Source: Flavihumibacter sp.
Lineage (GTDB): Bacteria; Bacteroidota; Bacteroidia; Chitinophagales; Chitinophagaceae
Direction of reading: 5' to 3'
Assembly (NCBI RefSeq): GCF_036676075.1
Contig: NZ_JAKFDQ010000016.1
Location: 104,071 to 168,070 of the forward strand
DNA: 64,000 nt
Part shown: positions 43,881 to 58,430 of the stretch, piece by piece
How the letters are laid out: each line of letters opens with the position of its first letter
How positions within the stretch are numbered: the stretch's first letter is position 1
The notes under the pieces: generated by a model
Seen by the model: only the letters and a program-made list of their open reading frames with translations
Database searches by the model: none
Told to the model about the DNA's origin: nothing
Position numbers and translations under genes: made by a program

Positions 43881-44651
43881 TTAAATCTCTGTTACCTTAT
43901 CGCCGGTTTTCGGTTGAACTTTCAATGTTTTCTTTGTTACTTTCAGATCTTTGAAATACCCAATCGTACCTATATCCACATATAGTCCGATTCCCCCTTT
44001 TTTATGTGTGCCGAGCAATTTGTCAACTATGAAAGTAGAATATTTCATGTCATTTATAAACATTTCGGCCGTTTCTCCGTTCACTTCGATCCGCATGGTG
44101 ATCCACTCATTCAATGCAACAGGGGCGGAGCCTTCATATTTGAATGGGGCGATCTTTCGCAATGTATCAAATTTATAATGTGGATACGATATGTATTGCA
44201 CTGCATGATTCCTGTATTGCTGGTTGTTGACTCTGCCAACTTTTGGTCTTACATAAATGCTCTCAAAAGCAGAATCGTTTTCTGCCACCCGAAAGTATAA
44301 CCCAATAAATCCTGCGATTCCCGCATAAGGCGCTGGATTTTGAAGCTGGCTATACATTTTCACTTCTATGGTTCCATTTTCAAAATCATCCAGCCCGGCA
44401 AGTTTGGCATAGTGTGGCTCGTCTACTGTTTCTTCAATATTAGTGCTGTCAAAAGGGATAGCAGTGAGATCCCGTTCTATTTTTAGAACATCCTTACCCT
44501 GGAATTTGATTATTTCTCCTGTAACATTATGCAGCTCGAAAGTTTGTTTACCCAGCTTTAACTGCTGTCTGTTCAAGGCATTTTGAGCCACTGCACCAAA
44601 GGAGATGCCCAAAACGAAACAAAGGGTTGAAATCAGGAATTTGGTATTCAT
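43881..44651 (-). CDS. exported DUF1080-like beta-sandwich protein; start revised
   Basis: Signal peptide; FENGTIEV, EWITMRIEV, GIGLYVDIGT.GYFKDL. Confidence 0.6.
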   Translation of the reverse strand: MNTKFLISTLCFVLGISFGAVAQNALNRQQLKLGKQTFELHNVTGEIIKFQGKDVLKIERDLTAIPFDSTNIEETVDEPHYAKLAGLDDFENGTIEVKMYSQLQNPAPYAGIAGFIGLYFRVAENDSAFESIYVRPKVGRVNNQQYRNHAVQYISYPHYKFDTLRKIAPFKYEGSAPVALNEWITMRIEVNGETAEMFINDMKYSTFIVDKLLGTHKKGGIGLYVDIGTIGYFKDLKVTKKTLKVQPKTGDKVTEI

Positions 44652-44782
44652 TATTTTAGTTTTTAATAAATTATACCACAAAGATGCGTTGGCATACAGG
44701 CTCCGTCCAATGAACTGTATTAAGAAAAACCATTGATCTAGGTTAAGGTTTTTACGTGTGAGTATTCTTCAACGTTAATTCT

Positions 44783-45176
44783 TTACAATTCGAAAGTAGG
44801 TATAACAGGGATGTTGGTTTTCAAGTAAGCTATTAATTCACAATTTGAAAGTAGTTGTAGAAGGTATGTTGTTTTTTAAGTTCGATATTAATTTACAATT
44901 CGAAAGTAGATGTTGAAGGGAAATTGTTTCTTGAGATCGATATTAATTTACAATTCGATAGTAGGTGTAGGGGGATGTTGAAATTTATCGGCGTGAGCTA
45001 CTTTCGATTTGTAAGAAATCAATACACTGAGTTATAGGTAGCAGTTGTTCTGTACTTTCGATTTGTAAGAAATCAATACACTGAGTTATAGGTAGCAGTT
45101 GTTCTGTACTTGCGATTTGTAATAAATCAATAGAATGGTGTATAGTAACTAGTGTAACTGTACATTCCATTTGCAA
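44783..45176. repeat. divergent repeat array A: 4 forward + 4 inverted copies of TTACAAWTCGAAAGTAG, 54-55 bp period
   Basis: Forward copies at 44783, 44838, 44893, 44948; inverted copies at 44998, 45052, 45106 and 45160 (degenerate). Confidence 0.92.
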
Positions 45177-45316
45177 GAAATCCATACAATTTGTTTAAGG
45201 TTTTTATATTGGCGGTAGTTTCTATTGTACAGTATCGCAACTGAGCACTAGTTGTCAACTTCACCGGCTTTGCAGTAAAAGCAAATAAAAAATCTACTAA
45301 CTTTATTTATCAATAT

Positions 45317-45898
45317 ATGCTCATGCACCAACTACACAGTTATCTTAATGCATATGCTTCAAATCCAGTTACAGACGAAGACTTTGAAATAATTAAAAGC
45401 CATTTCACCAACAAGACCCTACGAAAAAGACAATATTTTTTAGAAGAGGGGGAAATATGTAAACATTTTGCTTATATCATTAAAGGCGCTATGCGAAAGT
45501 ATCATGTAGACGACCAGGGAAAAGAACATGTAGTAGACCTTTATATTGAGAATTGGTGGGCAGGTGACCTTGAGAGCTTTGTTATGCTAAAACCTAGTAT
45601 CTATTACGTAGATGCCTGCGAAGATTGTGAATTGATGCTCATTACAAATGAAAGCAAAATAAAATTGTGTAGTCAATTACCTTCTTTTAATCAATTCTTA
45701 TTAAAGCTTGATGAGAGAAATCATATTGCTACACAAAGAAGAATAACTTCTACAATCAGCTCTTCTGCCAAAGTTCGTTATGACGATTTTGCAAGTTGTT
45801 ATCCTGAATTTTTACAACGCTTTCCTCAACATATCATCGCCTCCTACCTGGGCATTACAAAAGAAACCCTTAGCCGTGTGCGTAGCCAGGTTTCTTAA
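45317..45898 (+). CDS. Crp/Fnr-family transcriptional regulator
   Basis: cNMP-binding fold and C-terminal IASYLGITKETLSR HTH. Confidence 0.92.
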   Translation: MLMHQLHSYLNAYASNPVTDEDFEIIKSHFTNKTLRKRQYFLEEGEICKHFAYIIKGAMRKYHVDDQGKEHVVDLYIENWWAGDLESFVMLKPSIYYVDACEDCELMLITNESKIKLCSQLPSFNQFLLKLDERNHIATQRRITSTISSSAKVRYDDFASCYPEFLQRFPQHIIASYLGITKETLSRVRSQVS

Positions 45899-45926
45899 AA
45901 CATAAACCACTGTATACTTTTTAGAC

Positions 45927-45944
45927 TGTTGACATTTGTCAACA
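45927..45944. promoter_or_regulatory. palindromic operator candidate TGTTGACA-TT-TGTCAACA
   Basis: Perfect 8-bp arms between the Crp gene and the downstream operon. Confidence 0.6.
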
Positions 45945-46024
45945 TTTTATTTTACCATATATCATCGTTTTAAGCTTATCATTCTATGCAAATTTGTGCT
46001 ATCAAGCATTTAAATTTTAAAACG

Positions 46025-46678
46025 ATGTCAAAGAATCCCACCATAGGTCTTGCTGGCCTTCTTCGTCCTGAAGATAGTATAGTTGTACTGATCGATCACC
46101 AACCTTATCAGTTCACAAATCTGAACAGCCATGAACCAACAATGATTATTAATAATGTTGTCGGTCTTGCAAAAACAGCAAAAGTATTTAAGGTGCCAAC
46201 TATTCTTACCACCGTCATTGAAGAGCGGGGTGGTTACATCATCAAAGGATTACAGGATGTATTCCCTGAACAAAAACCCATAAACCGTACGTTCATCAAC
46301 ACCTGGGAAGATCCGAAGGTGACTAATATCGTAAATGAAAGCGGTCGTAAGCAACTTATACTTGCCGGACTATTCACTGAGATCTGTGTGGTTATGCCAG
46401 CAATTCAGGCACTGGAAGAAGGGTATGAAGTATTCGTTGTGACCGATGCCTGTGGCGGTGTAAGTTCAGAAGCTCATGACATGGCAGTACGCCGTTTGGT
46501 TCAAGCAGGTGTTGTTCCGATTAACTGGATGGCTGTAGCAGGTGAATGGCAGCGCGACTGGGCCCGTACCGATACGGCAGCTGGTATGGCTAGCGTCATT
46601 TTGGAGCACGGTGGAGCTAGTGGTATTTCTTTAGCCTGGGAATTACAGCTTCTTGCAACTCCTCCTGAAGCACATTAA
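46025..46678 (+). CDS. YcaC-like isochorismatase-family hydrolase; start revised
   Basis: LIDHQP, INTWED, LFTEICV, VVTDACGG. Confidence 0.88.
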   Translation: MSKNPTIGLAGLLRPEDSIVVLIDHQPYQFTNLNSHEPTMIINNVVGLAKTAKVFKVPTILTTVIEERGGYIIKGLQDVFPEQKPINRTFINTWEDPKVTNIVNESGRKQLILAGLFTEICVVMPAIQALEEGYEVFVVTDACGGVSSEAHDMAVRRLVQAGVVPINWMAVAGEWQRDWARTDTAAGMASVILEHGGASGISLAWELQLLATPPEAH

Positions 46679-46700
46679 GGATAGATCTAAAATTATAATC

Positions 46701-47057
46701 ATGAATAATAATTTGGCTTCTCTTATGGAAGAGAATCTATCCCGGGTATGGAGTGAAAGGAACGCTTCCCTTAGATTTAATTCAATACAAACCATTTATA
46801 CTGCGGATAGTAGTTTATATCATACCGGGCATCAAATATCAGGGCATGAGGCTATCAACGAAAGCGTCAATAACCTACTTGCGGATATGCCTGCCGCTTT
46901 TACATTTTTTAAACTTAAACCAGTTGTTATCAATAATATTATTGGACGACTAATCTGGGGGATGGGACCCAATATAGATTCGCTTGTTGGCAAGGGAATG
47001 GATATAGCTGTGTTTGAAGAGGGGAAAATAAAATCATTATACGTATTCCTTGATTAG
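46701..47057 (+). CDS. SnoaL/NTF2-like protein; start revised
   Basis: VWSERN...GMDIAVFEEGKIKSLYVF. Confidence 0.75.
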   Translation: MNNNLASLMEENLSRVWSERNASLRFNSIQTIYTADSSLYHTGHQISGHEAINESVNNLLADMPAAFTFFKLKPVVINNIIGRLIWGMGPNIDSLVGKGMDIAVFEEGKIKSLYVFLD

Positions 47058-47067
47058 ACATAAGAAC

Positions 47068-47940
47068 ATGAAGAAAAAAACCAGTTTTTCAACAAAAGGC
47101 CATAGAGCCGATATCGGCGACTTAACAATCTATAGAATACTAGCAAACAGATATGCAGATGCCGTTGGCCCATTTGTATTTCTGGACCATTTAGTTCCAC
47201 AAATTCCCTCATCCTCCATGATGAAAGGAACTGGTGCTCACCCCCATCGTGGAATAGCTACATTAAGTTATATTTTAGAAGGCGAAGATGAGCATTTCGA
47301 TAGCGCAGGAAATTATGCGAAAGTTTATTCCGGAGGTATTCAATGGATGAAAGCCGGAAATGGAATTATTCATGATGAGACGCTGAATGCAGACTCACGC
47401 ACAGGAAATAACTATATCCATGGTTTTCAATTTTGGATTAATCTTCCTTCTAAGAATAAAGCTGAAAAGCCGGAATACTTAGCGATCCAAAATAATGAAG
47501 TTCCAAAGAAAAAATTATCTGATGATGGTGGTTTTATAAAAGTGATAGTGGGTAATTACGAAGATTTGAATGCTATAATTCCAAATTATTCTAAGCAGTT
47601 TTTATATCATATTCAACTTCAGCCGGGCAAAAACATCAGCTTTTTTATTGAGGAAAAAATAGAGGTTGCCGCATTCCTGCCAGCTAAAAATGCGACGCTT
47701 AACGATGTTGAATTCCATGGAGGAGAGTTTGTAGAATTTGACAGAAATGCTGGTGAGATAGTTATTGAAAACAAACTGCAGGAAACTACCGACATCATTC
47801 TGTTTGGAGGAGAACCTTATACAGAGTCTATTGTGGCCGAAGGCCCTTTCGTGATGAACAGTTCTGCTGAAATAGCAGAAGCCTACCGCGACTTTCATGC
47901 CGGTAAATACGGCAAAATCGATTATGATAAAAGTGAATAA
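47068..47940 (+). CDS. pirin-family protein; start revised
   Basis: GPFVFLDH, HPHRG, WMKAGNGIIHDE, FQFWINLP, GPFVMN. Confidence 0.92.
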   Translation: MKKKTSFSTKGHRADIGDLTIYRILANRYADAVGPFVFLDHLVPQIPSSSMMKGTGAHPHRGIATLSYILEGEDEHFDSAGNYAKVYSGGIQWMKAGNGIIHDETLNADSRTGNNYIHGFQFWINLPSKNKAEKPEYLAIQNNEVPKKKLSDDGGFIKVIVGNYEDLNAIIPNYSKQFLYHIQLQPGKNISFFIEEKIEVAAFLPAKNATLNDVEFHGGEFVEFDRNAGEIVIENKLQETTDIILFGGEPYTESIVAEGPFVMNSSAEIAEAYRDFHAGKYGKIDYDKSE

Positions 47941-47959
47941 ACAAATTAAAAATATTGAA

Positions 47960-48823
47960 ATGGACAAGAAGATTGTATTGATTACAGGAACCAATAGTGG
48001 TTTTGGATGGCTTACCGCCCATAGTGTAGCCGCATCAGGACATAAAGTTTATGCTACTATGCGGCACACTAATGGGAAGAATGCCGATAAAGCAGAAGCC
48101 TTATCCCAGGTAAAGAATATAACTGTTTTAGATGTTTCGTTAACTGATGAAACAAGCGTCAAAAATGCTTTTGATACCATTATAGCAAAGGAGGGAACGA
48201 TAGATGTATTGGTAAACAATGCAGGTGGAGCGATGTTTGGTGTTGCTGAAAGTTCTACAACGGAAGATGTGCAGCGGATGCTTGATATCAATATGATCGC
48301 CCCCTGGAGATTGATGAAATTGGCAATACCCTATATGCGTAAACAATCAGAAGGTTTGATCATAAATATCTCGAGTGGCTGGGGTAGATTTTCCGCTCCT
48401 TTTGCTGTTGTATATGCCGCTTCAAAATTCGGTCTGGAAGGTTTGAGCGAAGGTTTACACTATGAACTACGGCCGTTGGGCGTTGATGTAACCATTATTC
48501 AACCCGGTGCCTTTCCTACTGAAATGTCTCAGAAGATCCAGTTTGGATCCGACACATCAGTTGTTGATGAATATAAAGCGATAGCAGATGTTCCTGGTAA
48601 AATGGGTACTGCCCGTGATCAAATGTTTGAAACTGCAAATCCTGATCCACAGGATGTTGCAGATGCCGTGGTGAAGCTGATCAATATGCCTAAAGGACAA
48701 AGGCCACTAAGAACAGTTGTTGACCCAACTACAGGAGAGTTTATCAAAAGGGCTAATGAGGCTGTAAACGTTGAGTATGGAAATATTTTAACAGCATTTG
48801 GGATGAAAGGCTTGTTAAACTAA
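47960..48823 (+). CDS. short-chain dehydrogenase; start revised
   Basis: TGTNSGFG, NNAG, YAASK. Confidence 0.92.
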   Translation: MDKKIVLITGTNSGFGWLTAHSVAASGHKVYATMRHTNGKNADKAEALSQVKNITVLDVSLTDETSVKNAFDTIIAKEGTIDVLVNNAGGAMFGVAESSTTEDVQRMLDINMIAPWRLMKLAIPYMRKQSEGLIINISSGWGRFSAPFAVVYAASKFGLEGLSEGLHYELRPLGVDVTIIQPGAFPTEMSQKIQFGSDTSVVDEYKAIADVPGKMGTARDQMFETANPDPQDVADAVVKLINMPKGQRPLRTVVDPTTGEFIKRANEAVNVEYGNILTAFGMKGLLN

Positions 48824-48860
48824 ATCGGCATTTAGATCGTCACAAAACATTTAAAGTAAT

Positions 48861-49256
48861 ATGAAAATGAGCAATAAAGAAATTGTGTTGAAGGCAATGA
48901 ATGAGTTGTTTCACGAAAAAGACAGCAGGGCCATAGAACGATATTGGCATGAATCTTATGTGCAGCACAATCCATCGATGATAAATGGCCACGAGGGACT
49001 TAGAAATCTTCTGCCCATGTTAGATTCAAACTTTAAGTGGCAGCCAGGTATCATAGTTGAGGAAAACAATATTGTGATTACACATAGTCTCGTACATGGA
49101 TGGGGCCCGGTGCAAGTTATTGTTGTGGATATTTTCCGCATTGAAGATGGAAAAATTGCAGAGCATTGGGATGTTGTACAGGAAGAAACCCCGGCTTTGA
49201 AATCTGCGAGTGGAAATGTTATGACATCTTTCAATGTATTAACCAATGAAAAGTAA
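48861..49256 (+). CDS. SnoaL-like ester cyclase/NTF2 protein
   Basis: YVQHNP, VDIFRIEDGKIAEHWDV. Confidence 0.88.
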   Translation: MKMSNKEIVLKAMNELFHEKDSRAIERYWHESYVQHNPSMINGHEGLRNLLPMLDSNFKWQPGIIVEENNIVITHSLVHGWGPVQVIVVDIFRIEDGKIAEHWDVVQEETPALKSASGNVMTSFNVLTNEK

Positions 49257-49560
49257 ATTAACAGGCAATAGGTACAAAATGGATGTGGGTGTTCTGAAAA
49301 CAGAACTCTATTTCGAATCAGATGAAGCTATGGTTTTTACTGTTTTAGAAGGAGGGGAGTTAACAAAAAATGGCTATTCCGAAAGAGTGGAAACAGTAAT
49401 AGCTGAAATACGTCCACAGGTGTATATGGTAGCATGGAAAGAAATTTCAGGTGCTACGGTAACGCATGTTGAAGACCATGAAAATGGAATTATTTATAGT
49501 AATGCCACATTGCCCGATGGTAGTTTTTATACGCTGAAGGGGTCCATACAACAAATTTAA
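49246..49560 (+). CDS. MoaF-like domain protein
   Basis: VYMVAWKE.SGATVTHVED pattern. Confidence 0.7.
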   Translation: MKSKLTGNRYKMDVGVLKTELYFESDEAMVFTVLEGGELTKNGYSERVETVIAEIRPQVYMVAWKEISGATVTHVEDHENGIIYSNATLPDGSFYTLKGSIQQI

Positions 49561-49574
49561 AAAGAAATATAATT

Positions 49575-49859
49575 ATGGAAATACTATTAAAAGAAGAAAG
49601 CAGCAAAGGCTTTGCGATGGCAAGATATAATAATGAACGCGCAGGGATGATGACCTATTCCATAGCATCAGCAGAATTGATCATCATAGATCATACAGAA
49701 GTTGAGCCGGCTTACAATGGTAAAGGCGTGGGCAAACAGATGCTCTATAAAATTGTAGAAATGGCAAGAGAGAAAAATATCAAAATCATCCCTTTGTGCC
49801 CGTTTGCAGCATCTGTGTTCAGGAAAGCAGTTGATATTAAAGACGTATTGAAAAATTAA
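49575..49859 (+). CDS. YjdJ-like GNAT acetyltransferase
   Basis: IIDHTEV...GKGVG...IIPLCPF. Confidence 0.88.
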   Translation: MEILLKEESSKGFAMARYNNERAGMMTYSIASAELIIIDHTEVEPAYNGKGVGKQMLYKIVEMAREKNIKIIPLCPFAASVFRKAVDIKDVLKN

Positions 49860-49861
49860 TC

Positions 49862-50080
49862 ATGGCAATGGAAACGATCAAATATTATCAGAAAGACAAT
49901 TTGACAATAATCTGGGAGCCGAAAAAATGCATCCATTCAGGCGTATGTGTAAGAACGTTACCAAAGGTTTACGATCCAAAAGGAACGCCTTGGATTAATA
50001 CAGATAATGCTTCGGTAGTGGCCTTAAAGCGTCAGATTGATGCTTGCCCATCCGGAGCATTAAGTTATATCGTTCCATAG
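49862..50080 (+). CDS. YjdI-like divergent 4Fe-4S protein
   Basis: CIHSGVC...PWI...CPSGALSY. Confidence 0.88.
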   Translation: MAMETIKYYQKDNLTIIWEPKKCIHSGVCVRTLPKVYDPKGTPWINTDNASVVALKRQIDACPSGALSYIVP

Positions 50081-50147
50081 CTAATTCCGTTTACGCAGGC
50101 TTTGCTGGAAAATCAAAAGTGTATTCCTAACCAATTATCAGAATAGT

Positions 50148-51197
50148 ATGAAACAGATCAGCATATCGGTAACAACAATTTTATTCTTTTTATTCAATTT
50201 AAATTCAAACATCATGGCACAAGCAATCGCCGGTGAAAAAGATCCGAATATCTCAAAACATACCCGTGAATTTTTGAAAGCACTAAACAGTGGAGATGGT
50301 CCGCCCTTGGAAAAATTATCACCCAGGGATGCCCGTCAGGTTCTGGTGAATGCACAAAATTCAGTATCCTATGACTACAGTGATATTGAAGAGTCAGAAC
50401 GAACCATTACCCAGGATGGCCATACAATCACCATTCATGTTGTGAAACCCAAAGGAGCCAAAGACAATCTTCCCGTATTCATGTTTTTCCATGGTGGTGG
50501 TTGGGTACTCGGTGATTACCCAACGCATAAACGTTTAGTAAGGGATTTAGTGGTGAAAAGCGGAGCGGTAGCCGTGTTCCCCGATTATACTCCTACACCC
50601 GATGCTCAATTTCCAGTAGCTATCAACCAGGCTTATGCGGCTACTAAATGGGTTGCAGAAAATGGAAAGGTTATAGGCGTTGATGGTTCCCGGTTGGCGG
50701 TTGCAGGTAACAGTGTGGGAGGAAATATGTCCACCGTAGTTGCCTTAATGGCCAAAGAGAAAAAGGGACCTAAGCTGGCCTTTCAACTTCTGCTCTGGCC
50801 GCTTATTGATGCAGACATGAGCCGTCCTTCTTATACGAAATTTGCACAGGGCAGATTCTTGACCACGTCCACAATGAAATGGATGTGGGATATGTATATT
50901 CCTAATCCTGAAGACCGCAAACAAAAATACGTTTCTCCAATTAATGCTACTCTGGAAGAATTAAAGGGATTGCCACCCGCATTAATTCAGGTTGCCGAAA
51001 ATGACATCTTGTATGATGAAGGAATTGCCTATGGCCGCAAACTGGATGAAGCAGGTGTAGCCACCACTGTTACAGTATATACAGGAATGATTCACGACTA
51101 TGGAATGTTGAATCCCTTATCACATATTCCGGGTGTGCAGGAAGCATTAAGTCAGGCTTCAGCTTTATTGCGCGAAGCTTTGTTCCGGAACCCTTAA
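50148..51197 (+). CDS. HSL-family alpha/beta hydrolase (esterase)
   Basis: HGGGW, GNSVGG, DILYDEG, GMIHDY. Confidence 0.9.
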   Translation: MKQISISVTTILFFLFNLNSNIMAQAIAGEKDPNISKHTREFLKALNSGDGPPLEKLSPRDARQVLVNAQNSVSYDYSDIEESERTITQDGHTITIHVVKPKGAKDNLPVFMFFHGGGWVLGDYPTHKRLVRDLVVKSGAVAVFPDYTPTPDAQFPVAINQAYAATKWVAENGKVIGVDGSRLAVAGNSVGGNMSTVVALMAKEKKGPKLAFQLLLWPLIDADMSRPSYTKFAQGRFLTTSTMKWMWDMYIPNPEDRKQKYVSPINATLEELKGLPPALIQVAENDILYDEGIAYGRKLDEAGVATTVTVYTGMIHDYGMLNPLSHIPGVQEALSQASALLREALFRNP

Positions 51198-51348
51198 ATA
51201 TATTTTTATGATGGCAGCAGTATTATATGAATTCGGGTCGTATGACAGTTTCAATAGAGGTTGAGCATTAAATGCTTTCTTAAGACTGGTAGATGAACCT
51301 AAAGAGTATTTGACAGAGTAGCAAACATTAATTGAAAATGAAAGTAAA

Positions 51349-52218
51349 ATGCAACAAATTAAATACAGGTCATTAGATGTAAATGGAGTGAACATCGCAT
51401 ATCGTGAAGCTGGAAACATCAAAAAGCCAACAATAGTATTGCTGCATGGTTACCCTTCATCTTCCCATCAGTACAGAAAACTATTGAATCAACTTTCAGA
51501 TGAATTCCATCTGATAGCGCCTGATTACCCGGGATTCGGAAACAGTGACTTTCCATCCCCCGAAGAATACGAATACACATTTGATAATATTGCGGCAACT
51601 AGGAATGCATTTTTAGAGTTAAAATGCATTACTTCTTATGCTATAATGATGCAGGATTATGGTGCCCCTATTGGATTCAGAATCGCAACCATGCATCCGG
51701 AAAGGGTAACCGCAATAATCAATCAAAATGGCAATGCTTATGAGGAAGGGCTTGGAAAAGGATGGGCACCTATTAAAGCATTATGGGCCAATAGAAATGA
51801 AAGTACTGAAAAGGCCTTATTACCTGCCTTTACATTAGAAGGTTTAAAATGGCAATATACCCACGGAACCAGAAACCCTGAAAATGTAAATCCTGATTCC
51901 TGGCATTTGGATTACCTCAGAATGAGCCGTCCTGATGCCCATAAGGTAAATATAGATCTGTGGTATGATTACCGGAATAATGTAAAATTATACCCCCAAT
52001 GGCAACAATACCTGAGAAAACATCAACCCCCCATGTTAATTGTATGGGGTAAGAATGATGAATACTTTCCCGAAACTGGTGCAGAAGCTTTTAAGAAAGA
52101 TCTCGATAATATCGACTATAATATATACGATACCGGGCATTTTGCTTTAGAAGAAGAAGGGGATGAGATCATTGAAAAGATCAGGGCTTTTATGGCAAAT
52201 GTTTATAAGGCAAACTAG
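51349..52218 (+). CDS. epoxide-hydrolase-like alpha/beta hydrolase
   Basis: LLHGYP, PDYPGFG, QDYG nucleophile, TGHFALE. Confidence 0.9.
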   Translation: MQQIKYRSLDVNGVNIAYREAGNIKKPTIVLLHGYPSSSHQYRKLLNQLSDEFHLIAPDYPGFGNSDFPSPEEYEYTFDNIAATRNAFLELKCITSYAIMMQDYGAPIGFRIATMHPERVTAIINQNGNAYEEGLGKGWAPIKALWANRNESTEKALLPAFTLEGLKWQYTHGTRNPENVNPDSWHLDYLRMSRPDAHKVNIDLWYDYRNNVKLYPQWQQYLRKHQPPMLIVWGKNDEYFPETGAEAFKKDLDNIDYNIYDTGHFALEEEGDEIIEKIRAFMANVYKAN

Positions 52219-52223
52219 TTGTA

Positions 52224-52661
52224 ATGGAAATCAAAACACAAATCACCATCAATGCCACGCCTGATAAAGTTTGGGCAGTGTTAACAGATTTTGAAAACTA
52301 TACCAATTGGAATCCATTTATTAAAAGCATCACTGGGAAACCTATAGTTGGTAGTCAAATTGCAGTAAGCATTGTACCGCCACAAGGTAAGAGCATGACA
52401 TTCAGTCCAACTGTGTTAGTGTTTGAGCGAAACAGAGAGTTTCGCTGGATAGGCAGATTATTATTTAAAGGTGTATTTGACGGAGAGCATAAGTTTGAAC
52501 TCATTGATAACGGAAACGGGATAACTCTCTTTAATCATAGTGAAACGTTTAAAGGGATCCTGGTAGGCTTATTCAAAAAACAACTTGAAACCAATACCAG
52601 GAAAGGCTTTGAACTGATGAATGAAAGCTTAAAGAAAATTGTGGAAAGCAGTAATAGATAG
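52224..52661 (+). CDS. SRPBCC (polyketide cyclase-like) protein
   Basis: VWAVLTDFENY..WNPFI, FDGEHKF, MNESLK. Confidence 0.88.
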   Translation: MEIKTQITINATPDKVWAVLTDFENYTNWNPFIKSITGKPIVGSQIAVSIVPPQGKSMTFSPTVLVFERNREFRWIGRLLFKGVFDGEHKFELIDNGNGITLFNHSETFKGILVGLFKKQLETNTRKGFELMNESLKKIVESSNR

Positions 52662-52738
52662 CAATTACTGAAATGAGATAATCATCTTCTTATCCATTTA
52701 ATAAATGTGATGTATTCATAAAATAAAAAGTCGAGAAT

Positions 52739-53128
52739 ATGGAAAAACGTGTAATTAACCCCTGGACCTGGCAAAAAGAACGTAGTTACAACCAGGCGGT
52801 AGAAGTAAAGAATGTAACAGGAACCCTCTATGTTTCCGGGCAAACCGCCATCAATGATAAAGGCGAATCAAGTACCGCTGATATGAAAACTCAACTGGAG
52901 TTGGCGATTGAGAATCTGGAGAAAGTAGTTACTGAAGCGGGTTATGATTGCAAAAATATTGTACGCCTTAATATTTACACCACATCCACCAAAGATCTTT
53001 GGCCGCATTTTAGCATACTCCAAAATTGGGTGGAAAAACACGGAATGGAACAGGCTTTGACGTTATTGGAGGTTGTAAGTCTTTTTGAAACCTTAACTGT
53101 TGAGCTCGAGGCAACTGTTGTAAAGTAG
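52739..53128 (+). CDS. RidA/YjgF-family protein
   Basis: LYVSGQ...VELEATVV. Confidence 0.85.
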   Translation: MEKRVINPWTWQKERSYNQAVEVKNVTGTLYVSGQTAINDKGESSTADMKTQLELAIENLEKVVTEAGYDCKNIVRLNIYTTSTKDLWPHFSILQNWVEKHGMEQALTLLEVVSLFETLTVELEATVVK

Positions 53129-53216
53129 TTGATAAAAAGCTCATGATCTTGTAATGAGGGGTGGGCTGACCAATAGAAGCGAATGAATAGTCATCAGTGA
53201 AAATTACGTAAGTATT

Positions 53217-53702
53217 TTATTGAACCCGCTTGTATATGAAATCAGCCTTCTTCATCCATTCCCCATTATTTACGGCTGCTTCTTCTACAAAATGAAGATT
53301 TTTGTCAATTGGAGTAATCGTAATTCTCCATTTTGTGGTTTTTTCTGGAATTATTCGCTGACCTTCAAAAATGAAATGATCTGTTTCCCACCTTCCTCTT
53401 AGCGTTCTTGAATTGCCGGAAGTGTAAAGCCCATAATAAATATATGTTTTCTCGAGCGGGGAATAGGACAGATAACTTACAGAACTATCAACACCTTCTT
53501 TCTCTTTCGAAGCAGATATGCATTGAATATGGTTTCCTTGTATCCTGTCACAAATTTCCAGGTAAGTGGCTTCACTTCCTTCAACCGTCCAGTGACCCTG
53601 GAAAACGCTAAGTCTTTGTTGCTCTGGGAGCACCGTTTTTTCCTGGGCCTGCACTCCCATCCAAAAGAATAAAATATATGATAAAGTGAAAAACAGGTTC
53701 AT
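53217..53702 (-). CDS. exported beta-barrel protein (DUF1579-like)
   Basis: Signal peptide, GHWTVEG, beta-rich; starts 25 nt after a core site. Confidence 0.6.
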   Translation of the reverse strand: MNLFFTLSYILFFWMGVQAQEKTVLPEQQRLSVFQGHWTVEGSEATYLEICDRIQGNHIQCISASKEKEGVDSSVSYLSYSPLEKTYIYYGLYTSGNSRTLRGRWETDHFIFEGQRIIPEKTTKWRITITPIDKNLHFVEEAAVNNGEWMKKADFIYKRVQ

Positions 53703-53727
53703 TTTATAAACATTTAAGGGATGAATT

Positions 53728-53925
53728 ACTGGTAACGAGTCGGGCTATATGCAGGTTGGGAATTAGTATTCCGTCTGCCGATAACCGCCGATGATTGAAA
53801 ATATGTTGATGAAGTTATGTACAAAAGCTGATAGTTATTCGTCTGCTGGAACTGAAGCTGGGATTTGCAATTGGTTGATGTTACAATGTCAAGCCCAACT
53901 TGCACAAAACCCAATGTTAGCTGTG
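53728..53925 (-). mobile_element. attC-like hairpin site 1
   Basis: Plus-strand ACTGGTAAC-GAGTC-GGGCTATATGCAGGTTGGG ... CCCAACTTGCACAAAACCC-AAT-GTTAGCTGTG: imperfect inverted arms with unpaired extra bases. The AraC stop codon lies inside the core. Confidence 0.7.
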
Positions 53926-54726
53926 GTTTTTCTCGATTGCTGATGGGTTCACCCCAAATTTTGATTTAAACGTTCTTGAAAAATGAGAGAAGTTTACAAA
54001 GCCAACGTCAAAGTAAACGTCTGTCGGCTTTTGGTGTTTTTTAGAAATTAAAAAGTGTGCTAAGTCAAGCCGTTTTTTAATCAGCCATTTGTTAGGTGTC
54101 TCGTTAAATATGGCTTGAAAATCTCTTTTAAAAGTTGAAATACTACGTCCTGTCAACGTTGCAAATTTTTCTAATGGAATGTTGTGCATATAGTTCTTGT
54201 TCATATATGCTTCTAAATCAATTTTGAAGTCTGTGTCAAAATTGAAAAGTATGTTTTGCATTGAAGTCTTTTTAAGCAATAGTTCTATCACTTCAATGGT
54301 TTTGATTGTCGCTAAATTGTTGGTTAGAGCATCTGGATTTTCAAAGTAAGGAATCAAAGAGTCAAAATAACCTTTTAGAAAAGAATCATGAGGAAACACA
54401 AAACTTGGCTTTCCTGTGTAGTTTCCCCTCGGAATAATATTATGCTCTTTAGAATAATTGTATAAGATTTCTTTTGGTAGTAAAATGCTAATGCTCATAA
54501 AGGGCTTATTATCCTGAGGTATTTTTTGGATTTTTAAAAGCTGATTTTTGGAAATAAAAGCCATTTCACTTTTATTAAATGTTATTTCTACAAGACCGTC
54601 ATTGATTATCAACTTACCGTTTAAAATAAATGACAAGGCATGGTCTTCAACAAAAGGTTCAAAATCTTTTCTTGCCTCACCCGTGCAGGAGAATAAAATA
54701 TTATCTTTTGTTCTGTCTTTAATCAT
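53917..54726 (-). CDS. AraC-family regulator
   Basis: GRSISTFKRDF and VGFVNFSHFSRTFK HTH motifs. Confidence 0.92.
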   Translation of the reverse strand: MIKDRTKDNILFSCTGEARKDFEPFVEDHALSFILNGKLIINDGLVEITFNKSEMAFISKNQLLKIQKIPQDNKPFMSISILLPKEILYNYSKEHNIIPRGNYTGKPSFVFPHDSFLKGYFDSLIPYFENPDALTNNLATIKTIEVIELLLKKTSMQNILFNFDTDFKIDLEAYMNKNYMHNIPLEKFATLTGRSISTFKRDFQAIFNETPNKWLIKKRLDLAHFLISKKHQKPTDVYFDVGFVNFSHFSRTFKSKFGVNPSAIEKNHS

Positions 54727-54727
54727 T

Positions 54728-55237
54728 TTATTGATTTTGCTGAGTGTAATTGATTATTTGTTTGTAGTAAATAGCTGAACGTTCTTTTGAAAAATAATCA
54801 ATTACCATAAATGCGAAACCGAATACAGTTAATGCAATAGCAATGGCATGTAAATGATGATTTTTCATAAAGCCTAAAAAAACTACTGCTATAACAAAAC
54901 AAACAGCACTAATGCTAAGAGAAAGAGGATAGAGATATTGAAAATCTTCCACTCTTTTTTTTTCAGCTGTCACAAACTCACCAATATTTTCTTTGCTGGC
55001 TTGTACAACCGTTGCCATTGTCTTTTGATTTGAATAACCCATTGAGCCGCCAATGGCAATAAATATTAGTCCAACAATCAGCATAGGAATAAATAATGAT
55101 TTTGAATTGAGTGTACTTCCAAAATATCGGAACAAGGAAGCAACAAGGATTGTCGCCACTCCAAAAGCAAGAATAAATTTCGCTTCAAAAATTTCTCCTT
55201 TATACCAGTTTAAAGTGTGTTCTATCATTTTATTCAC
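54728..55237 (-). CDS. four-TM membrane protein
   Basis: Hydrophobic segments; located between the SDR and AraC genes. Confidence 0.7.
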   Translation of the reverse strand: MNKMIEHTLNWYKGEIFEAKFILAFGVATILVASLFRYFGSTLNSKSLFIPMLIVGLIFIAIGGSMGYSNQKTMATVVQASKENIGEFVTAEKKRVEDFQYLYPLSLSISAVCFVIAVVFLGFMKNHHLHAIAIALTVFGFAFMVIDYFSKERSAIYYKQIINYTQQNQ

Positions 55238-55257
55238 AGTTATTGAATTATAAATTT

Positions 55258-55290
55258 AAAAAAGTCTGCCTAAATAATAGGGCAGACATT
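55258..55290 (-). terminator. intrinsic terminator after the SDR gene
   Basis: GTCTGCCCTA-TTATT-TAGGCAGAC followed by a T-run on the minus strand. Confidence 0.6.
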
Positions 55291-55308
55291 TAAATGGCTT
55301 TTGCTTAT

Positions 55309-56055
55309 TTATTTTGCGTTGTAACCACCATCAATACTCAATACAGTTCCTGTCATAAATTGATTCTCATCGGAAGCTAAAAAATAAATTCCCTTTGCAA
55401 TATCTTCAACTTCTCCCAAACGTTTCATTGGATGCAACGCTTCAATGCCTGAAACATCGTAAGTGCCCGAAGCGATAGCATTTTTCAAAATGTCGGTTTT
55501 GATAGCCCCTGGTGCAACTGCATTTACACGAATGCCTTGTGTCGCATAATCAAGTGCTGCACCTTTTGTCAAACCGACAACCGCATGTTTGGAAGCATTG
55601 TATTGTGCAGTACTTACCAACCCATTCAAACCTGCGATTGATGCAAGATTTACAATTGTTCCGCCTCCCGTTTTCAACATTGCCTTTATAGCATGTTTCA
55701 TACCGTAATAAACTCCCATTACATTAGTTTCCAGCATTTGTTTTAACTCGTCAGATTCTGTGTCTGCCAATAAAGCGTTGCCTAAAGAAATTCCTGAATT
55801 GTTTACAATAGAATCAAGTTTGCCGAATTTTTCAACTGTTTTTTCAATTACAGTTTTTACTTGTTCTTCATTAGTTACGTCCAAAGAGAAAAATGTTACC
55901 GAAGCTCCATTTTTTTCAAAGTCTTTTAGTACTTCTGCTTCTTTGTTTGCATTTCTGCTTGTTACAATAACGTTGTATCCATTTTTAGCAAATAGTATTG
56001 CTGTTGCTTTACCGATACCGGTTGTTCCGCCTGTAATAATTACTGTCTTTTTCAT
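55309..56055 (-). CDS. short-chain dehydrogenase (glucose 1-dehydrogenase-like)
   Basis: TGGTTGIG, NNSG, YNASK, IDGG. Confidence 0.92.
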   Translation of the reverse strand: MKKTVIITGGTTGIGKATAILFAKNGYNVIVTSRNANKEAEVLKDFEKNGASVTFFSLDVTNEEQVKTVIEKTVEKFGKLDSIVNNSGISLGNALLADTESDELKQMLETNVMGVYYGMKHAIKAMLKTGGGTIVNLASIAGLNGLVSTAQYNASKHAVVGLTKGAALDYATQGIRVNAVAPGAIKTDILKNAIASGTYDVSGIEALHPMKRLGEVEDIAKGIYFLASDENQFMTGTVLSIDGGYNAK

Positions 56056-56080
56056 ATTCTGTTTTTTTAATTGTACAGGG

Positions 56081-56088
56081 CAAAGGTA
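56081..56088 (-). promoter_or_regulatory. Bacteroidota -7 promoter box TACCTTTG
   Basis: Matches TAnnTTTG, about 25 nt upstream of the SDR start. Confidence 0.6.
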
Positions 56089-56164
56089 AAAAGAGAGTAA
56101 GTCGGGGATTTTTCTGTAAGGTTCAAATTACTGTCCTGTGAGGTCGTGTAGGGTATGCTAAAAT

Positions 56165-56264
56165 CACAGCTAACGTTAAAGTATTGGCGAAGGCGGGCGC
56201 ATTTGATTTTTTTCATCCACCTGGATGTTGGCAGCCCGCTTTTGCCAATACCATGTTGTAGGCA
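56165..56264 (-). mobile_element. attC-like hairpin site 2
   Basis: CACAGCTAAC-GTTAAA-GTATTGGCGAAGGCGGGC ... GCCCGCTTTTGCCAATAC-CAT-GTTGTAGGCA. Confidence 0.75.
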
Positions 56265-56270
56265 GTATTA

Positions 56271-56891
56271 TTATTTATATGTATTAGACCCATTAAAGTT
56301 TCTATTATAGATGTTTCTTAAAAAGAACACCCTCTTTTCGATCATCTCGAAATAATAGCTCCAACAATAAAGTCTAGAATTATGGTTTCCAAAGTCGTTC
56401 AAATCAAAAATGAATTCCTTCTCTTTAATAAAAAAATCAAGCCATTTTCTTTGCGAGTCAATTAGTTTTCTTTTCATTTCTGGCGTTAATACCGAAAGTG
56501 ACTTTTGATAGTACTTGTTAAGAAAATTGTCATACGCGTCCATATACTTTGAACCTTTCCAGTTCATACCCATTGTTGTCGTTGCCATTGAATATGATCC
56601 ATCATATTCGGATAAAAACTCATTAATCCTAATCGTGTCTTTCGCAAATTCAATTTCATCTAGTCTCTGTTCATCTGTCAAGGTTTCAAAATTGCTTTTA
56701 TTGTCAATTTTAAATTTTTCAAGTTTTTGCTTGATTATAGGTTCAATTCTCTTATTTATTTTCTGCTCAACTTCTGGTTTAAGTACTAAATAATTCAGTT
56801 TATCAACTTCAAAAATATCAGTAGTGTCAATTATTTGAGCCACACTTAATTGACAAATAAAGATGGATAGGATTAGTAAGGTTGGTTTCAT
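56271..56891 (-). CDS. exported LprI/DUF1311-domain protein
   Basis: Signal peptide; LNKYYQ...KLIDSQRKWLDF pattern; ATG 15 nt after a core site. Confidence 0.75.
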   Translation of the reverse strand: MKPTLLILSIFICQLSVAQIIDTTDIFEVDKLNYLVLKPEVEQKINKRIEPIIKQKLEKFKIDNKSNFETLTDEQRLDEIEFAKDTIRINEFLSEYDGSYSMATTTMGMNWKGSKYMDAYDNFLNKYYQKSLSVLTPEMKRKLIDSQRKWLDFFIKEKEFIFDLNDFGNHNSRLYCWSYYFEMIEKRVFFLRNIYNRNFNGSNTYK

Positions 56892-56905
56892 CGGGCTGTT
56901 AATAT

Positions 56906-56990
56906 TGCCTACAACGTTTGTATTAATGAAATATACGAAAATTAGGGACCATCAGAAATAGTTACGTTCATTTAATGAATGGTTTTTAGG
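56906..56990 (-). mobile_element. decayed attC-like site 3 (one intact core)
   Basis: TGCCTACAAC at 56906-56915 is the exact inverse of 56255-56264. The partner arm is only weakly complementary. Confidence 0.45.
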
Positions 56991-57038
56991 AATATTTGGT
57001 AATGATTTCTGCAAACTGGAAAAGCTAGTATTGCTGAT

Positions 57039-57860
57039 TCATTTCAGAAAATCATTTGTCTTTACTCGTGTGAACTCCGGTGAACAATCAAAAAAGTAAT
57101 TTAGCAGATTCAGGTGATCTGAACCAAATATTACCAGAATTCTATCAGATGCATTGGCATTAATTCGCTGAATATTTCTGAATATTTTTAAATTTCTACT
57201 GAACCATCGGCCTGTTTCAAAATCAACACCTGTAAAATCATGCTCCTGCGATTCATATTTAAATAGGCCTATCAGATAGTTACCCAGACTTTTTTTTATG
57301 TTTACTTCATCATTGGATTGACGTAAATCAGCCAGAATACCTTTGGTTTTGAATAGTGGAATACTATTATATCGTTTCGAAGAATCAGGATTGTTTACAA
57401 AATATGTTTCAAATTTATTGGCTTCAATGCTGTCCTTCCCACTTATGATGCTATCGATTTTATTATTAAAATTCCCCCACTCATCAACACAGTATAATTT
57501 CTTTAGGCCCATCTGTTTTGCTAACCTGAATCCAATTTGTTCTTCTTCGTTTCTTTTAAGCTGGTAGTTACCTTTTAGGTATTGATTAAAGATTGAATCA
57601 GTTTTATGTTGTTTATTAGGTTGCCTTTCTATGACAATAATGGTGGGTTTGAACCTCGCAATTTTACTCACTATATCTTCTATCTCTTTTTGAAACCTAG
57701 GTTCCAGAACATCAATTTGATCATTTTTACTGATTTGTTTTACGTCTAAATTTGGGAAATTGAAATGAAAGGTCCCCAATGTCATCACTTCCGTTTTGGG
57801 GGACTGGGCAACTATAATGGCAGAGAAGAGTGTCAGCAAGATTGTGAAAATTGCTTTCAT
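57039..57860 (-). CDS. exported DUF5694-like protein; start revised to 57860
   Basis: Signal peptide; LGTFHF, EQIGFRLAK, RNLKIFRNI, FGSDH. Confidence 0.75.
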   Translation of the reverse strand: MKAIFTILLTLFSAIIVAQSPKTEVMTLGTFHFNFPNLDVKQISKNDQIDVLEPRFQKEIEDIVSKIARFKPTIIVIERQPNKQHKTDSIFNQYLKGNYQLKRNEEEQIGFRLAKQMGLKKLYCVDEWGNFNNKIDSIISGKDSIEANKFETYFVNNPDSSKRYNSIPLFKTKGILADLRQSNDEVNIKKSLGNYLIGLFKYESQEHDFTGVDFETGRWFSRNLKIFRNIQRINANASDRILVIFGSDHLNLLNYFFDCSPEFTRVKTNDFLK

Positions 57861-57869
57861 TTTATTTTT

Positions 57870-57906
57870 GACGTATAACGGTCTGAGCGCCGGACTTGTT
57901 ACAGCC
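57870..57906 (-). mobile_element. minimal attC-like site 4
   Basis: GACGTATAAC-GGTCTGAGCGCCGGACTT-GTTACAGCC: AAC/GTT cores around an 18-nt centre, 9 nt before the downstream ATG. Confidence 0.5.
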
Positions 57907-57933
57907 ACTTATAAAGTTTCTTTGTTGGCAATG

Positions 57934-58356: not shown

Positions 58357-58410
58357 TTGCGAATGATTTTAATGTATTCGCAAAATTGGTGATCAGACTA
58401 ATAACGCACC

Positions 58411-58426: not shown

Positions 58427-58430
58427 AAAT

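What the first reader, a model, noticed from the sequence alone, without database searches (positions are those of the whole stretch)
44783..45176. Divergent 4+4 array of a 17-bp motif at five-helical-turn spacing (array A)
Four TTACAAWTCGAAAGTAG copies at exactly 55-bp spacing are followed by four inverted copies at 54-bp spacing. Linkers are conserved within each half but differ between halves, so the halves expanded separately. Each copy contains TACTTTCG, one mismatch from the Bacteroidota -7 box TAnnTTTG, and each half points toward the gene on its own side. The inverted units also contain TTGTAAGAAATCAA (8/10 to the FNR box). Hypotheses: stacked divergent promoters, a cooperative regulator platform, or recombination/partition sites. 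It matches no element I can name.
Basis: partly seen in the sequence, partly recalled or inferred. Interest (0 to 1): 0.75.

Follow-up and report, generated by a model that had tools for sequence, protein, structure and literature searches.

The report
Dispersed two-armed 55-bp repeat element
The 4+4 array is real, but it is one of about fifteen copies of a non-coding repeat family found in only three closely related Flavihumibacter species. The family consists of two facing runs of 55-bp units with a conserved 16-bp core, lies in every kind of gene gap, and flanks DNA segments that differ between species, so it is not a promoter stack or a Crp docking site.

Summary
There are four direct cores at 55-bp spacing and four inverted cores at 54-bp spacing, against 0.33 matches expected by chance.

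The array is not a local regulatory feature.
- **Family:** the genome holds about 112 such units in about 15 intergenic arrays. Each array is a direct run followed by an inverted run, and units are 54-56 bp long.
- **Conservation:** the 16-bp core TTACAAATCGmAAGTA is strongly conserved, while the linkers differ between arrays.
- **Distribution:** the family occurs in 3 of 24 genomes of the genus and in none of 400 other genomes of the order.
- **Context:** arrays lie between divergent, tandem and convergent genes. One fills a hemN/gpsA gap that is only 19-30 bp in five of the other congeners examined.
- **Dynamics:** arrays sit at the same positions in the three species, but copy numbers differ.
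- **Gain and loss:** the 14.3-kb segment between arrays A and B is replaced by a single array in one species. An array-flanked ATPase gene and one whole array are also present in some species and absent in others.
- **What was not found:** a Bacteroidota promoter, a family-wide FNR box, an Rfam match, RNA pairing, or a linked recombinase or transposase.

Best reading: a lineage-restricted, foldback-like mosaic repeat comparable to neisserial NIMEs. Its core is probably a protein recognition site, and its arrays serve as recombination substrates around accessory genes. The binding protein is unknown.

The parts
44783..44964 (+). Left arm of array A: four direct 55-bp units with cores at 44783, 44838, 44893 and 44948 (TTACAATTCGAAAGTAG type) and purine-rich 'L-type' linkers
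44965..44997 (.). Centre between the two arms (33 bp). It is homologous to the centre of array B. Across the family, centres range from 18 to 427 bp and are not conserved.
44998..45176 (-). Right arm of array A: four inverted 54-bp units with cores at 44998, 45052, 45106 and 45160 (the last is degenerate) and 'R-type' linkers (GAAATCAATACACTGAGTTATAGGTAGC...)
45177..45212 (-). Decayed terminal R-type linker. It contains TTAAGGTTTTTA (45195-45206), which repeats exactly at 44743-44754 on the other side of the array.
44743..44782 (+). Left border: the 12-bp direct-repeat copy TTAAGGTTTTTA, followed by a partial L-type linker before the first core
59108..59453 (.). Array B, a homologous second copy (3 direct and 4 inverted units) in the same overall orientation as array A. 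Together with A it bounds the 14.3-kb segment that is missing in a sister species.
45177..59107 (.). Low-GC accessory segment bounded by arrays A and B (37.4% GC against 43.6% for the genome). It is about 8.5 kb in G014 and is replaced by a single array in G002.
43881..44681 (-). Left neighbour gene, a 3-keto-disaccharide-hydrolase-like protein. It also flanks the array in both sister species.
45317..45898 (+). Right neighbour gene, a Crp/Fnr-family regulator (cNMP_binding). It is part of the variable segment and is not tied to the repeat family.

Best explanation
Array A is one copy of an old, lineage-restricted, dispersed non-coding repeat: a 'two-armed' or foldback-like mosaic array.

**Architecture.** Each copy is a run of about 55-bp units followed by an inverted run. 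Every unit carries an oriented 16-bp core (TTACAAATCGmAAGTA) followed by a 38-40-bp linker.

**Shown:**
- The family is dispersed across the genome, always has the same polarity, and has a fixed unit length.
- It occurs in only three species.
- It arrived as inserted DNA in otherwise tight gene gaps.
- Arrays gain and lose units.
- Whole arrays, and gene segments flanked by arrays, are present in some species and absent in others.

**Inferred:**
- The core is the recognition site of a sequence-specific DNA-binding protein. A recombination or transposition protein is the most likely kind. The fixed spacing would reflect a multi-subunit complex assembled on each arm.
- The arrays act as substrates for recombination. 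Recombination between directly oriented arrays excises or integrates the DNA between them, and unequal exchange changes the number of units.
- As a result, the arrays flank and reshuffle accessory genes such as the low-GC Crp-to-Crp segment between A and B.

The array does not drive or regulate the two genes beside it.
For: - **Family and polarity:** the genome has 65 core matches at up to 1 mismatch and none for the reversed-pattern control. About 112 units lie in about 15 arrays. Wherever both arms are present, the direct run comes first.
- **Unit length and core:** spacing is 55 bp in 51 cases, 54 in 16 and 56 in 13. Core positions carry about 1.5 bits of information each, against about 0.1 bits for linker positions. 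All 54-56-bp and 110-111-bp tandem repeats in the genome belong to this family.
- **Distribution:** 3 of 24 genus genomes have 59-81 cores each, and the rest have 0-2. In a scan of 400 further genomes from 157 genera of the order, only G000 matched.
- **Insertion:** the convergent hemN and gpsA genes are 6-30 bp apart in five congeners, but 1.2-1.75 kb apart and filled by the array in the three carrier species.
- **Dynamics:** arrays sit at the same positions in the three species, with differing unit numbers.
- **A-to-B segment:** G002 has one array with A's left flank and B's right flank, where G000 and G014 have A, then 14.3 or 8.5 kb, then B.
- **ATPase segment:** the block of 9 direct units, the AAA_14-DUF4143 gene and 7 inverted units is absent from G002. 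The flanking homology there stops at the outermost cores.
- **Array x:** it is present in G014 and G002 and cleanly absent in G000.
- **Unit types:** the same L-type and R-type units recur at unlinked loci and occur in different combinations.
- **Selection on the core:** in orthologous arrays of equal length, core divergence is 1.8% against 3.6% for linkers.
- **GC content:** the A-to-B segment is 37.4% GC against 43.6% for the genome.
- **Known analogue:** NIME arrays behave in the same way (PMC1797815).
Against: - **No enzyme found:** G000 has only 3 tyrosine recombinases, none next to an array. It has no IS110-family gene. Its only rve-type transposase is an IS21-like copy whose ends are unrelated to the core.
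- **No clear target-site duplication**. The 12-bp repeat flanking array A is borderline, reached by 1 of 500 shuffles.
- **No recent movement:** no two arrays at different loci are nearly identical, so no spread since the three species split is demonstrated.
- **Direction unresolved:** each presence/absence difference could be either a loss or a gain.
- **Homologous recombination may suffice:** ordinary recombination between repeats would explain the segment differences without a dedicated protein.
- **Boundaries do not always match:** some segment differences in the region do not end at arrays.
- **Weak short-term signal:** the difference between core and linker divergence between species is only about two-fold. 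Core conservation is partly inflated because units were found by matching the core.
Confidence: 0.58

Rival explanations
1. The array is a neutral interspersed minisatellite. An ancestral 55-bp unit spread once, and the arrays now only drift through slippage and unequal crossing-over. No protein partner and no function are involved, and segment differences next to arrays are by-products of homologous recombination between repeats.
For: - No linked enzyme was found.
- The arrays are old and sit at the same positions in the three species.
- Copy number changes by whole units.
- G002 keeps about 59 cores although it lacks the only array-enclosed ATPase.
Against: - The core is kept at about 1.5 bits per position while the linkers of different arrays have diverged almost completely.
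- Unit length stays at 54-56 bp despite that divergence.
- A T-tract and an AT-rich stretch before the core are kept at fixed positions.
- The polarity rule has no exception.
- Core divergence between species is about half that of the linkers.
Confidence: 0.2
2. The array is a docking platform of the AAA_14-DUF4143 ATPase, which has a PD-(D/E)XK nuclease fold and matches the PADLOC defence candidate PDC-S01. The core would derive from this gene's own upstream operator, and the protein would bind, and possibly cut or move, all arrays in the genome.
For: - The gene at G000 C7:556824-558095 is enclosed by 9 direct and 7 inverted units, in both G000 and G014.
- Core-like TTACAA motifs continue up to and across its start codon.
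- Five of five paralogues examined in other species carry private tandem or palindromic repeats just upstream of the start codon.
- Pfam, PADLOC and literature assignments support the domain and defence-candidate labels.
Against: - G002 has no homologue at E<=1e-5 but keeps the arrays.
- Only one of about 15 arrays encloses the gene.
- In G023 the private repeat is found only next to its gene and is not dispersed.
- The region just upstream of the start codon has no regular repeat period.
Confidence: 0.1
3. The array is a local regulatory platform: stacked divergent promoters, or a cooperative operator array for the adjacent Crp/Fnr regulator.
For: - Arrays A and B each lie between divergent genes and next to a Crp-family gene.
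- TACTTTCG and TCGATTTG are each one mismatch from TAnnTTTG.
- The R-type units of A and B contain TTGTAAGAAATCAA.
Against: - No -33 partner lies at a usable distance, except for one box at the array centre.
- Sigma-70-type promoter matches are no more frequent than in shuffled sequence.
- Other arrays lie between convergent or tandem genes of unrelated function.
- The ATCAA motif is absent from the other unit types.
- The Crp gene faces the R arm at array A and the L arm at array B.
- G002 keeps the array without either Crp gene.
- The core is not a palindrome, whereas Crp/Fnr dimers are known to bind palindromic sites.
Confidence: 0.05
4. The array is a structural chromosome site: a centromere-like partition site, a replication-fork trap, or a transcription barrier built from oriented protein-binding sites in two opposed groups.
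For: The opposed polarity and regular spacing recall sopC and parC centromeres and opposed Ter sites. This comparison rests on my own knowledge.
Against: - About 15 loci are scattered over several contigs.
- The family is absent from 21 of 24 congeners, so it has no conserved chromosomal role.
- No ParB-, SopB- or Tus-like partner was looked for or seen.
- Arrays vary and are lost without any visible replacement.
Confidence: 0.03

Closest known systems
Neisserial intergenic mosaic elements (NIMEs: dRS3 cores separating RS spacers; PMC1797815)
   Same: - A short conserved core alternates with variable spacers in intergenic arrays.
- There are many arrays per genome, at the same positions in related genomes, with changing repeat number.
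- They are associated with variable flanking genes.
- The core is proposed to be a recombinase recognition site, and array-flanked genes are proposed to insert into arrays.
   Different: - dRS3 is a 20-bp inverted repeat (ATTCCCN8GGGAAT), whereas this core is asymmetric and oriented.
- RS spacers range from 19 to 214 bp, whereas this unit is fixed at 54-56 bp.
- NIME arrays have no rule of two opposed arms.
- dRS3 is the target of an IS110/Piv-like phage recombinase. No such gene exists in G000 or G014.
- The phylum differs.
Foldback (FB) transposable elements of Drosophila and similar long-inverted-repeat elements (own knowledge)
   Same: - Two long inverted arms are each built from tandem sub-repeats.
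- The arms can differ in length.
- The arms either meet directly or enclose a cargo 'loop'.
- Pairs of elements flank and move or delete the DNA between them.
   Different: - FB elements are eukaryotic and have other unit sizes (10, 20 and 31 bp).
- Here the two arms use different linker families.
- No transposase partner was found and no recent mobility is shown.
Multi-site ends of DDE transposons (Tn7 TnsB sites, Mu L1-3/R1-3, Tn5053/Tn402, IS21; own knowledge)
   Same: - Asymmetric sites of about 16-22 bp are repeated and face inward at both ends.
- The left and right ends are organised differently.
- In one case the flanking homology ends at the outermost cores.
   Different: - Up to 16 strictly tandem copies per arm is far more than the 2-4 sites of known transposon ends.
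- No transposase lies between the arms.
- There is no clear target-site duplication.
- The outermost core does not start with the usual TG.
- The only rve gene in G000 is an unrelated IS21-like copy.
Interspersed minisatellites and mosaic repeats of bacteria (MIRU of mycobacteria, BIME/REP of enterobacteria, BOX of pneumococci; own knowledge)
   Same: They are lineage-specific, intergenic and dispersed across tens of loci. They are tandem, with copy number varying between strains, and their function is largely unknown.
   Different: - MIRU arrays run in one direction and overlap the ends of small ORFs.
- REP and BIME cores are hairpin palindromes linked to RAYT transposases.
- None of these has a 55-bp unit with an asymmetric core in two opposed arms.
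Plasmid centromeres made of tandem units (F sopC 12 x 43 bp; R1 parC 2 x 5 iterons; own knowledge)
   Same: Units of fixed length each carry one protein-binding core, and the number of units varies.
   Different: Centromeres occur once per replicon beside their par genes. Here there are about 15 chromosomal loci with no par genes nearby.

Membership tests
NIME / dRS3 arrays | A conserved short core alternates with variable spacers in intergenic arrays that sit at the same positions in related genomes but change in repeat number | tested here: met
   definition taken from PMC1797815
NIME / dRS3 arrays | The core is the 20-bp inverted repeat ATTCCCN8GGGAAT | tested here: not met
   The core is TTACAAATCGmAAGTA. 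It is asymmetric, with only TAC-N9-GTA as short outer symmetry.
NIME / dRS3 arrays | The core is the integration target of an IS110/Piv-type recombinase | tested here: not met
   PF02371 has no match in G000 or G014.
Multi-site DDE transposon ends / MITE | Inward-facing repeated binding sites at both ends | tested here: met
   The polarity is a direct run followed by an inverted run at every two-armed locus in three genomes.
Multi-site DDE transposon ends / MITE | An autonomous copy carries a transposase between the ends | tested here: not met
   The enclosed genes are an AAA_14-DUF4143 ATPase, a lipoprotein and a 302-aa protein with no Pfam hit. The only rve gene is an IS21-like copy with unrelated ends.
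Multi-site DDE transposon ends / MITE | A target-site duplication flanks the element | tested here: inconclusive
   Only a 2-bp 'TC' repeat flanks array x. None was seen at the ATPase element. A 12-bp repeat flanks array A, reached by 1 of 500 shuffles.
Bacteroidota sigma-A promoter | A -33 TTTG and a -7 TAnnTTTG separated by about 19-21 bp | tested here: not met
   There are only one-mismatch -7 boxes. Just one, at the array centre, has a TTG at 17-22 bp. Arrays also lie between convergent genes.
Crp/FNR operator | A palindromic site (TTGAT-N4-ATCAA or TGTGA-N6-TCACA) present at the regulated promoters | tested here: not met
   The 8/10 match exists only in the R-type units of arrays A and B. 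It is absent from the other unit types. The core is not palindromic.
CRISPR array | Identical repeats separated by unique spacers, usually with a leader and cas genes | tested here: not met
   The linkers within an array are homologous to one another, and the two arms are opposed. The presence of cas genes near the arrays was not examined.
Structured RNA (any Rfam family) | A match to a covariance model, or covarying base pairs | tested here: not met
   No Rfam match at gathering thresholds. No base-pair covariation among 50 distinct units.
Foldback elements | Long inverted arms built from tandem sub-repeats, with or without a central loop | tested here: met
   Folding as single-stranded DNA gives z = -3.3. 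This shows architectural resemblance only; homology cannot be tested.
Integron attI/attC | An adjacent IntI integrase and attC sites with R''/L''/L'/R' structure | not tested
No integrase lies next to any array.

The most novel reading that the evidence does not exclude
The arrays may be the working parts of an undescribed way of moving genes in Bacteroidota. An oriented 16-bp core repeated every 55 bp would recruit a multi-subunit protein that pairs two arms and excises or integrates whatever lies between the arrays, without a classical integrase or DDE transposase. The candidate protein is the array-enclosed AAA+ ATPase with a PD-(D/E)XK nuclease domain (DUF4143, PADLOC candidate PDC-S01), whose paralogues all carry private repeats upstream of their start codons. 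This would also give a first function to the very widespread DUF4143 ATPases.
Probability: 0.1. Interest if true: 0.8.

Novelty: new variant of a known kind. Interest (0 to 1): 0.45.

Why it matters
- **Annotation:** a neat, phased motif array between divergent genes can look like a regulatory platform and yet be a copy of a dispersed repeat. This matters for annotation and for motif-based prediction of regulons.
- **A tractable case:** few interspersed repeat families have been described in Bacteroidota. This one has a clear architecture (oriented core, fixed 55-bp unit, two different arms). Three species also give filled and empty sites that can be compared.
- **Genome plasticity:** the arrays lie beside accessory, low-GC and defence-type genes that differ between sister species. 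They may therefore help explain how gene content changes in genomes with few classical mobile elements.
- **A testable lead:** if a binding protein exists, the core gives a direct handle for finding it.

Tried and rejected
- **Promoter stack:** rejected on sequence and on gene context.
- **Crp/FNR platform:** rejected.
- **RNA element:** no Rfam hit and no covariation.
- **tRNA-linked element in the window:** none found.
- **CRISPR:** the linkers are homologous to one another, so this is rejected.
- **Known plasmid or phage sequence:** no blastn match.
- **Phage or viral origin of the core:** only single chance matches.
- **IS110 target, as in NIMEs:** no IS110 gene in G000 or G014.
- **Tyrosine recombinase next to arrays:** none.
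- **Tn7/Mu-type partner:** the only rve gene is an unrelated IS21-like copy.
- **Conserved crossover site in the array centre:** centres are 18-427 bp long and not conserved.
- **Stand-alone LytTR protein beside one array as the binder:** it belongs to a multi-copy family present in all congeners, so the test was uninformative.
- **Decayed R-type unit left of array A:** the match to a generic R unit is not significant.
- **Metagenome scan for autonomous copies:** mostly chance hits, plus one short contig (L294) with a related 109-bp double unit.
- **Strain-level copy number from Logan contigs:** the contigs break inside the array.

Full report
**Observation.** Window 44783-45176 holds four direct copies of TTACAAWTCGAAAGTAG. 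They start at 44783, 44838, 44893 and 44948, exactly 55 bp apart. Four inverted copies follow at 44998, 45052, 45106 and 45160, 54 bp apart; the last is degenerate. Tandem Repeats Finder reports both halves: period 55 with 3.6 copies, and period 54 with 3.5 copies. The window has 13 matches at up to 3 mismatches, against 0.33 expected from shuffles. Linkers are alike within a half and different between halves. A homologous second array, B, lies at 59108-59453. The 'five helical turns' label is loose, because 55 bp is 5.24 turns of relaxed B-DNA.

**It is a genome-wide family, not a local feature.**
- The core (at up to 1 mismatch) occurs 65 times in the genome. The reversed-pattern control occurs 0 times.
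- With looser matching, about 112 units lie in about 15 arrays on contigs C6, C7, C16 and C22.
- Every two-armed locus has a direct run followed by an inverted run. This also holds in the two sister genomes.
- In some copies the two arms touch. In others they enclose 0.4-1.6 kb, including one or two genes.
- Unit length is 55 bp in 51 cases, 54 in 16 and 56 in 13.
- All 54-56-bp and 110-111-bp tandem repeats in the genome belong to this family.
- Core positions carry about 1.5 bits each, and linker positions about 0.1 bits. Exceptions are a T-tract at +34 to +37 and an AT-rich stretch before the next core.
- Linkers of different arrays are essentially unalignable, but they fall into recurring 'L-type' and 'R-type' classes. 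These classes appear at unlinked loci in different combinations.
- The units show no base-pair covariation, and Rfam gives no match.

**Distribution.** Only 3 of 24 genomes of the genus carry the core: G000, G014 and G002, the last being Flavihumibacter sp. ZG627. Each has 59-81 copies, while the others have 0-2. A scan of 400 further genomes from 157 genera of the order, for two half-cores 43-47 bp apart, matched only G000. Plasmid and phage collections give no blastn match. One short metagenome contig, L294, has a related 109-bp double unit with the core CCYCGATTTSYAAAATCC.

**The arrays are inserted DNA and sit in every gene context.** The largest array lies between the convergent 3' ends of a hemN-like gene and gpsA. 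These genes are 6-30 bp apart in five congeners and 0.25-2.6 kb apart in four others; in two of those four the gap holds an unrelated 14-bp palindromic repeat. In G000, G014 and G002 they are 1.2-1.75 kb apart, and the gap is filled by the array. Other arrays lie between tandem genes, next to tRNA-Asp, or around single accessory genes. Neighbours range from housekeeping enzymes to a hybrid two-component system, a phospholipase C and a patatin/peptidase/metallo-beta-lactamase trio. This context rules out a general promoter role.

Sequence points the same way. No unit has a perfect -7 box, and only one near-match has a TTG at a usable distance. Sigma-70-type promoters and terminators are no more frequent than in shuffled sequence.

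The FNR-like TTGTAAGAAATCAA exists only in the R-type units of arrays A and B. The two Crp proteins are 28% identical. The Crp gene faces the R arm at array A and the L arm at array B. G002 keeps the array without either Crp gene. A perfect palindrome, TGTTGACATTTGTCAACA (45927-45944), between the Crp gene and the next gene is a more ordinary candidate for the Crp operator. This last point is an inference.

**Dynamics.** The arrays sit at the same positions in the three species, but the number of units differs. The gpsA-side arm has about 16 core copies in G000, against about 7 55-bp units in G014 and about 5 in G002. At another locus one to four units are present. In orthologous G000/G014 arrays of equal length, cores differ at 9 of 498 positions (1.8%) and linkers at 51 of 1436 (3.6%).

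Three presence/absence differences stand out:
- **The A-to-B segment.** G002 has a single array whose left flank is that of array A and whose right flank is that of array B. G000 has A, then 14.3 kb, then B; G014 has A, then 8.5 kb, then B. The segment is 37.4% GC, against 43.6% for the genome.
- **The ATPase segment.** The block of 9 direct units, an AAA_14-DUF4143 ATPase gene and 7 inverted units is present in G000 and G014. In G002, 57 unrelated bp stand in its place. Flank homology stops within 1 bp of the outermost cores.
- **Array x.** This array, upstream of the photolyase-related gene in G014 and G002, is cleanly missing in G000 (window 60504-60558).

Not every segment difference in these regions ends at an array.

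**Search for a partner enzyme.**
- G000 has three tyrosine recombinases, none next to an array. One of them lies in this window at about 16965-17480 and is conserved in all congeners compared.
- G000 and G014 have no IS110-family gene.
- G000 has one rve gene, an IS21-like copy on a 2.3-kb contig with unrelated ends.
- The array-enclosed ATPase matches the PADLOC defence candidate PDC-S01. Its DUF4143 domain belongs to the PD-(D/E)XK nuclease superfamily.
- Five of five paralogues examined in other species carry private tandem or palindromic repeats directly upstream of the start codon. In G023 that repeat is found only next to its gene.
- G002 lacks the ATPase but keeps the arrays, so this link remains only a lead.

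**Interpretation.**

Shown:
- The array belongs to a dispersed, lineage-restricted, two-armed repeat family.
- Its oriented core and its unit length are both constrained.
- It arrived as inserted DNA.
- It changes by whole units.
- It often bounds gene segments that differ between sister species.

Inferred:
- The core is a protein recognition site.
- The arrays are recombination substrates. Exchange between directly oriented arrays removes or adds the DNA between them, and unequal exchange changes the number of units.

The closest described system is the neisserial NIME/dRS3 array, which shows the same behaviour and for which the same hypothesis was proposed (PMC1797815). The closest architecture is the eukaryotic foldback element, followed by the multi-site ends of Tn7- and Mu-type transposons; these comparisons rest on my own knowledge. 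The family fails the defining tests for membership in each: the core is not a dRS3 palindrome, there is no IS110 gene, no transposase lies between the arms, and there is no clear target-site duplication. Earlier notes of this scan describe similar 'opposed-array' repeats in other phyla (e1-2189211, e1-4093742, e1-3516638). These are unchecked, and I use them only as context.

**Limits.** Only G000 could be analysed as a whole genome. The direction of each presence/absence event is unknown. Core conservation is slightly inflated because units were found through the core, although only about 5% of in-phase units were missed.

Noticed in passing
window 45927-45944: A perfect palindrome, TGTTGACA-TT-TGTCAACA, lies between the Crp gene (45317-45898) and the isochorismatase-family gene. 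It is a plausible ordinary operator for that Crp-family regulator. A second palindrome, TTGCGAAT-N11-ATTCGCAA, lies at 58357-58383, between the other Crp gene and the SnoaL-like gene downstream of it.
   Followed up: no
window 59454-59890: The non-coding stretch to the right of array B holds 21-bp repeats (AATACCTCCTGCGCCAG, 59509-59563) and 11-bp repeats (59661-59739). The part next to the array, with the 21-bp repeats, is conserved in G014 and G002 and forms the right flank of the single G002 array; the 11-bp repeats were seen in G014 only.
   Followed up: partly
G000 C7:500907, 1029720, 1037125, 1060020, 1350111 and about 5 more loci: A second dispersed element of about 70 bp is built from two palindromic boxes (TTTATTGAyCcATATATGAAtCAATAAA). 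It sits in the centre of, or next to, three or four of the 55-bp arrays.
   Followed up: partly
L339-L343 (G017, G013, G023, G011): All five DUF4143/AAA_14 ATPase paralogues examined have 2-4 private tandem or palindromic repeats (period 23-36 bp, 64 bp in one case) directly upstream of the start codon. In G023 the motif occurs nowhere else in the genome. This looks like a general, undescribed feature of this candidate defence gene family.
   Followed up: partly
L024:886-1750 (G020), L032:4280-4526 (G003): Other Flavihumibacter species carry an unrelated 14-bp palindromic repeat family (TGTCAGACACCACA / GGTGTCTGACA) at the same hemN/gpsA gap. In G020 it flanks extra genes.
   Followed up: no
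G000 C7:469890-470340: The centre of the largest array holds a possible 34-codon ORF (MPLSYTIYGSLGLVFLAVILLRDWLVQRKQRNSVH) that looks like a small membrane peptide. It is followed by about 12 copies of an 18-bp tandem repeat (TTTCACCATTGCACTTTC).
   Followed up: no
window 40920-41104: Three abutting tracts with an 11-bp period (AAAGACGCTTC, GCTTAGAGAAA, CGGCTCTTCGT) lie 3.7 kb to the left of array A. They are already the subject of another note (e1-5246621).
   Followed up: no
window about 16965-17480 (-): A tyrosine recombinase (PF00589, E = 4e-45) lies here. Orthologues are present in all six other genomes compared, so it is probably a housekeeping Xer-type enzyme.
   Followed up: no
L294 (metagenome contig Ga0310342_100914354): Two arrays in the same orientation have a 109-bp double unit with the core CCYCGATTTSYAAAATCCAAAACTGT. 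They appear to be a related repeat family in an unidentified organism.
   Followed up: partly
G000 C6:604152-604387: A one-armed array of five inverted units abuts tRNA-Asp. The DNA on its other side is not at the same position in G014 or G002, as expected at the edge of a genomic island.
   Followed up: partly
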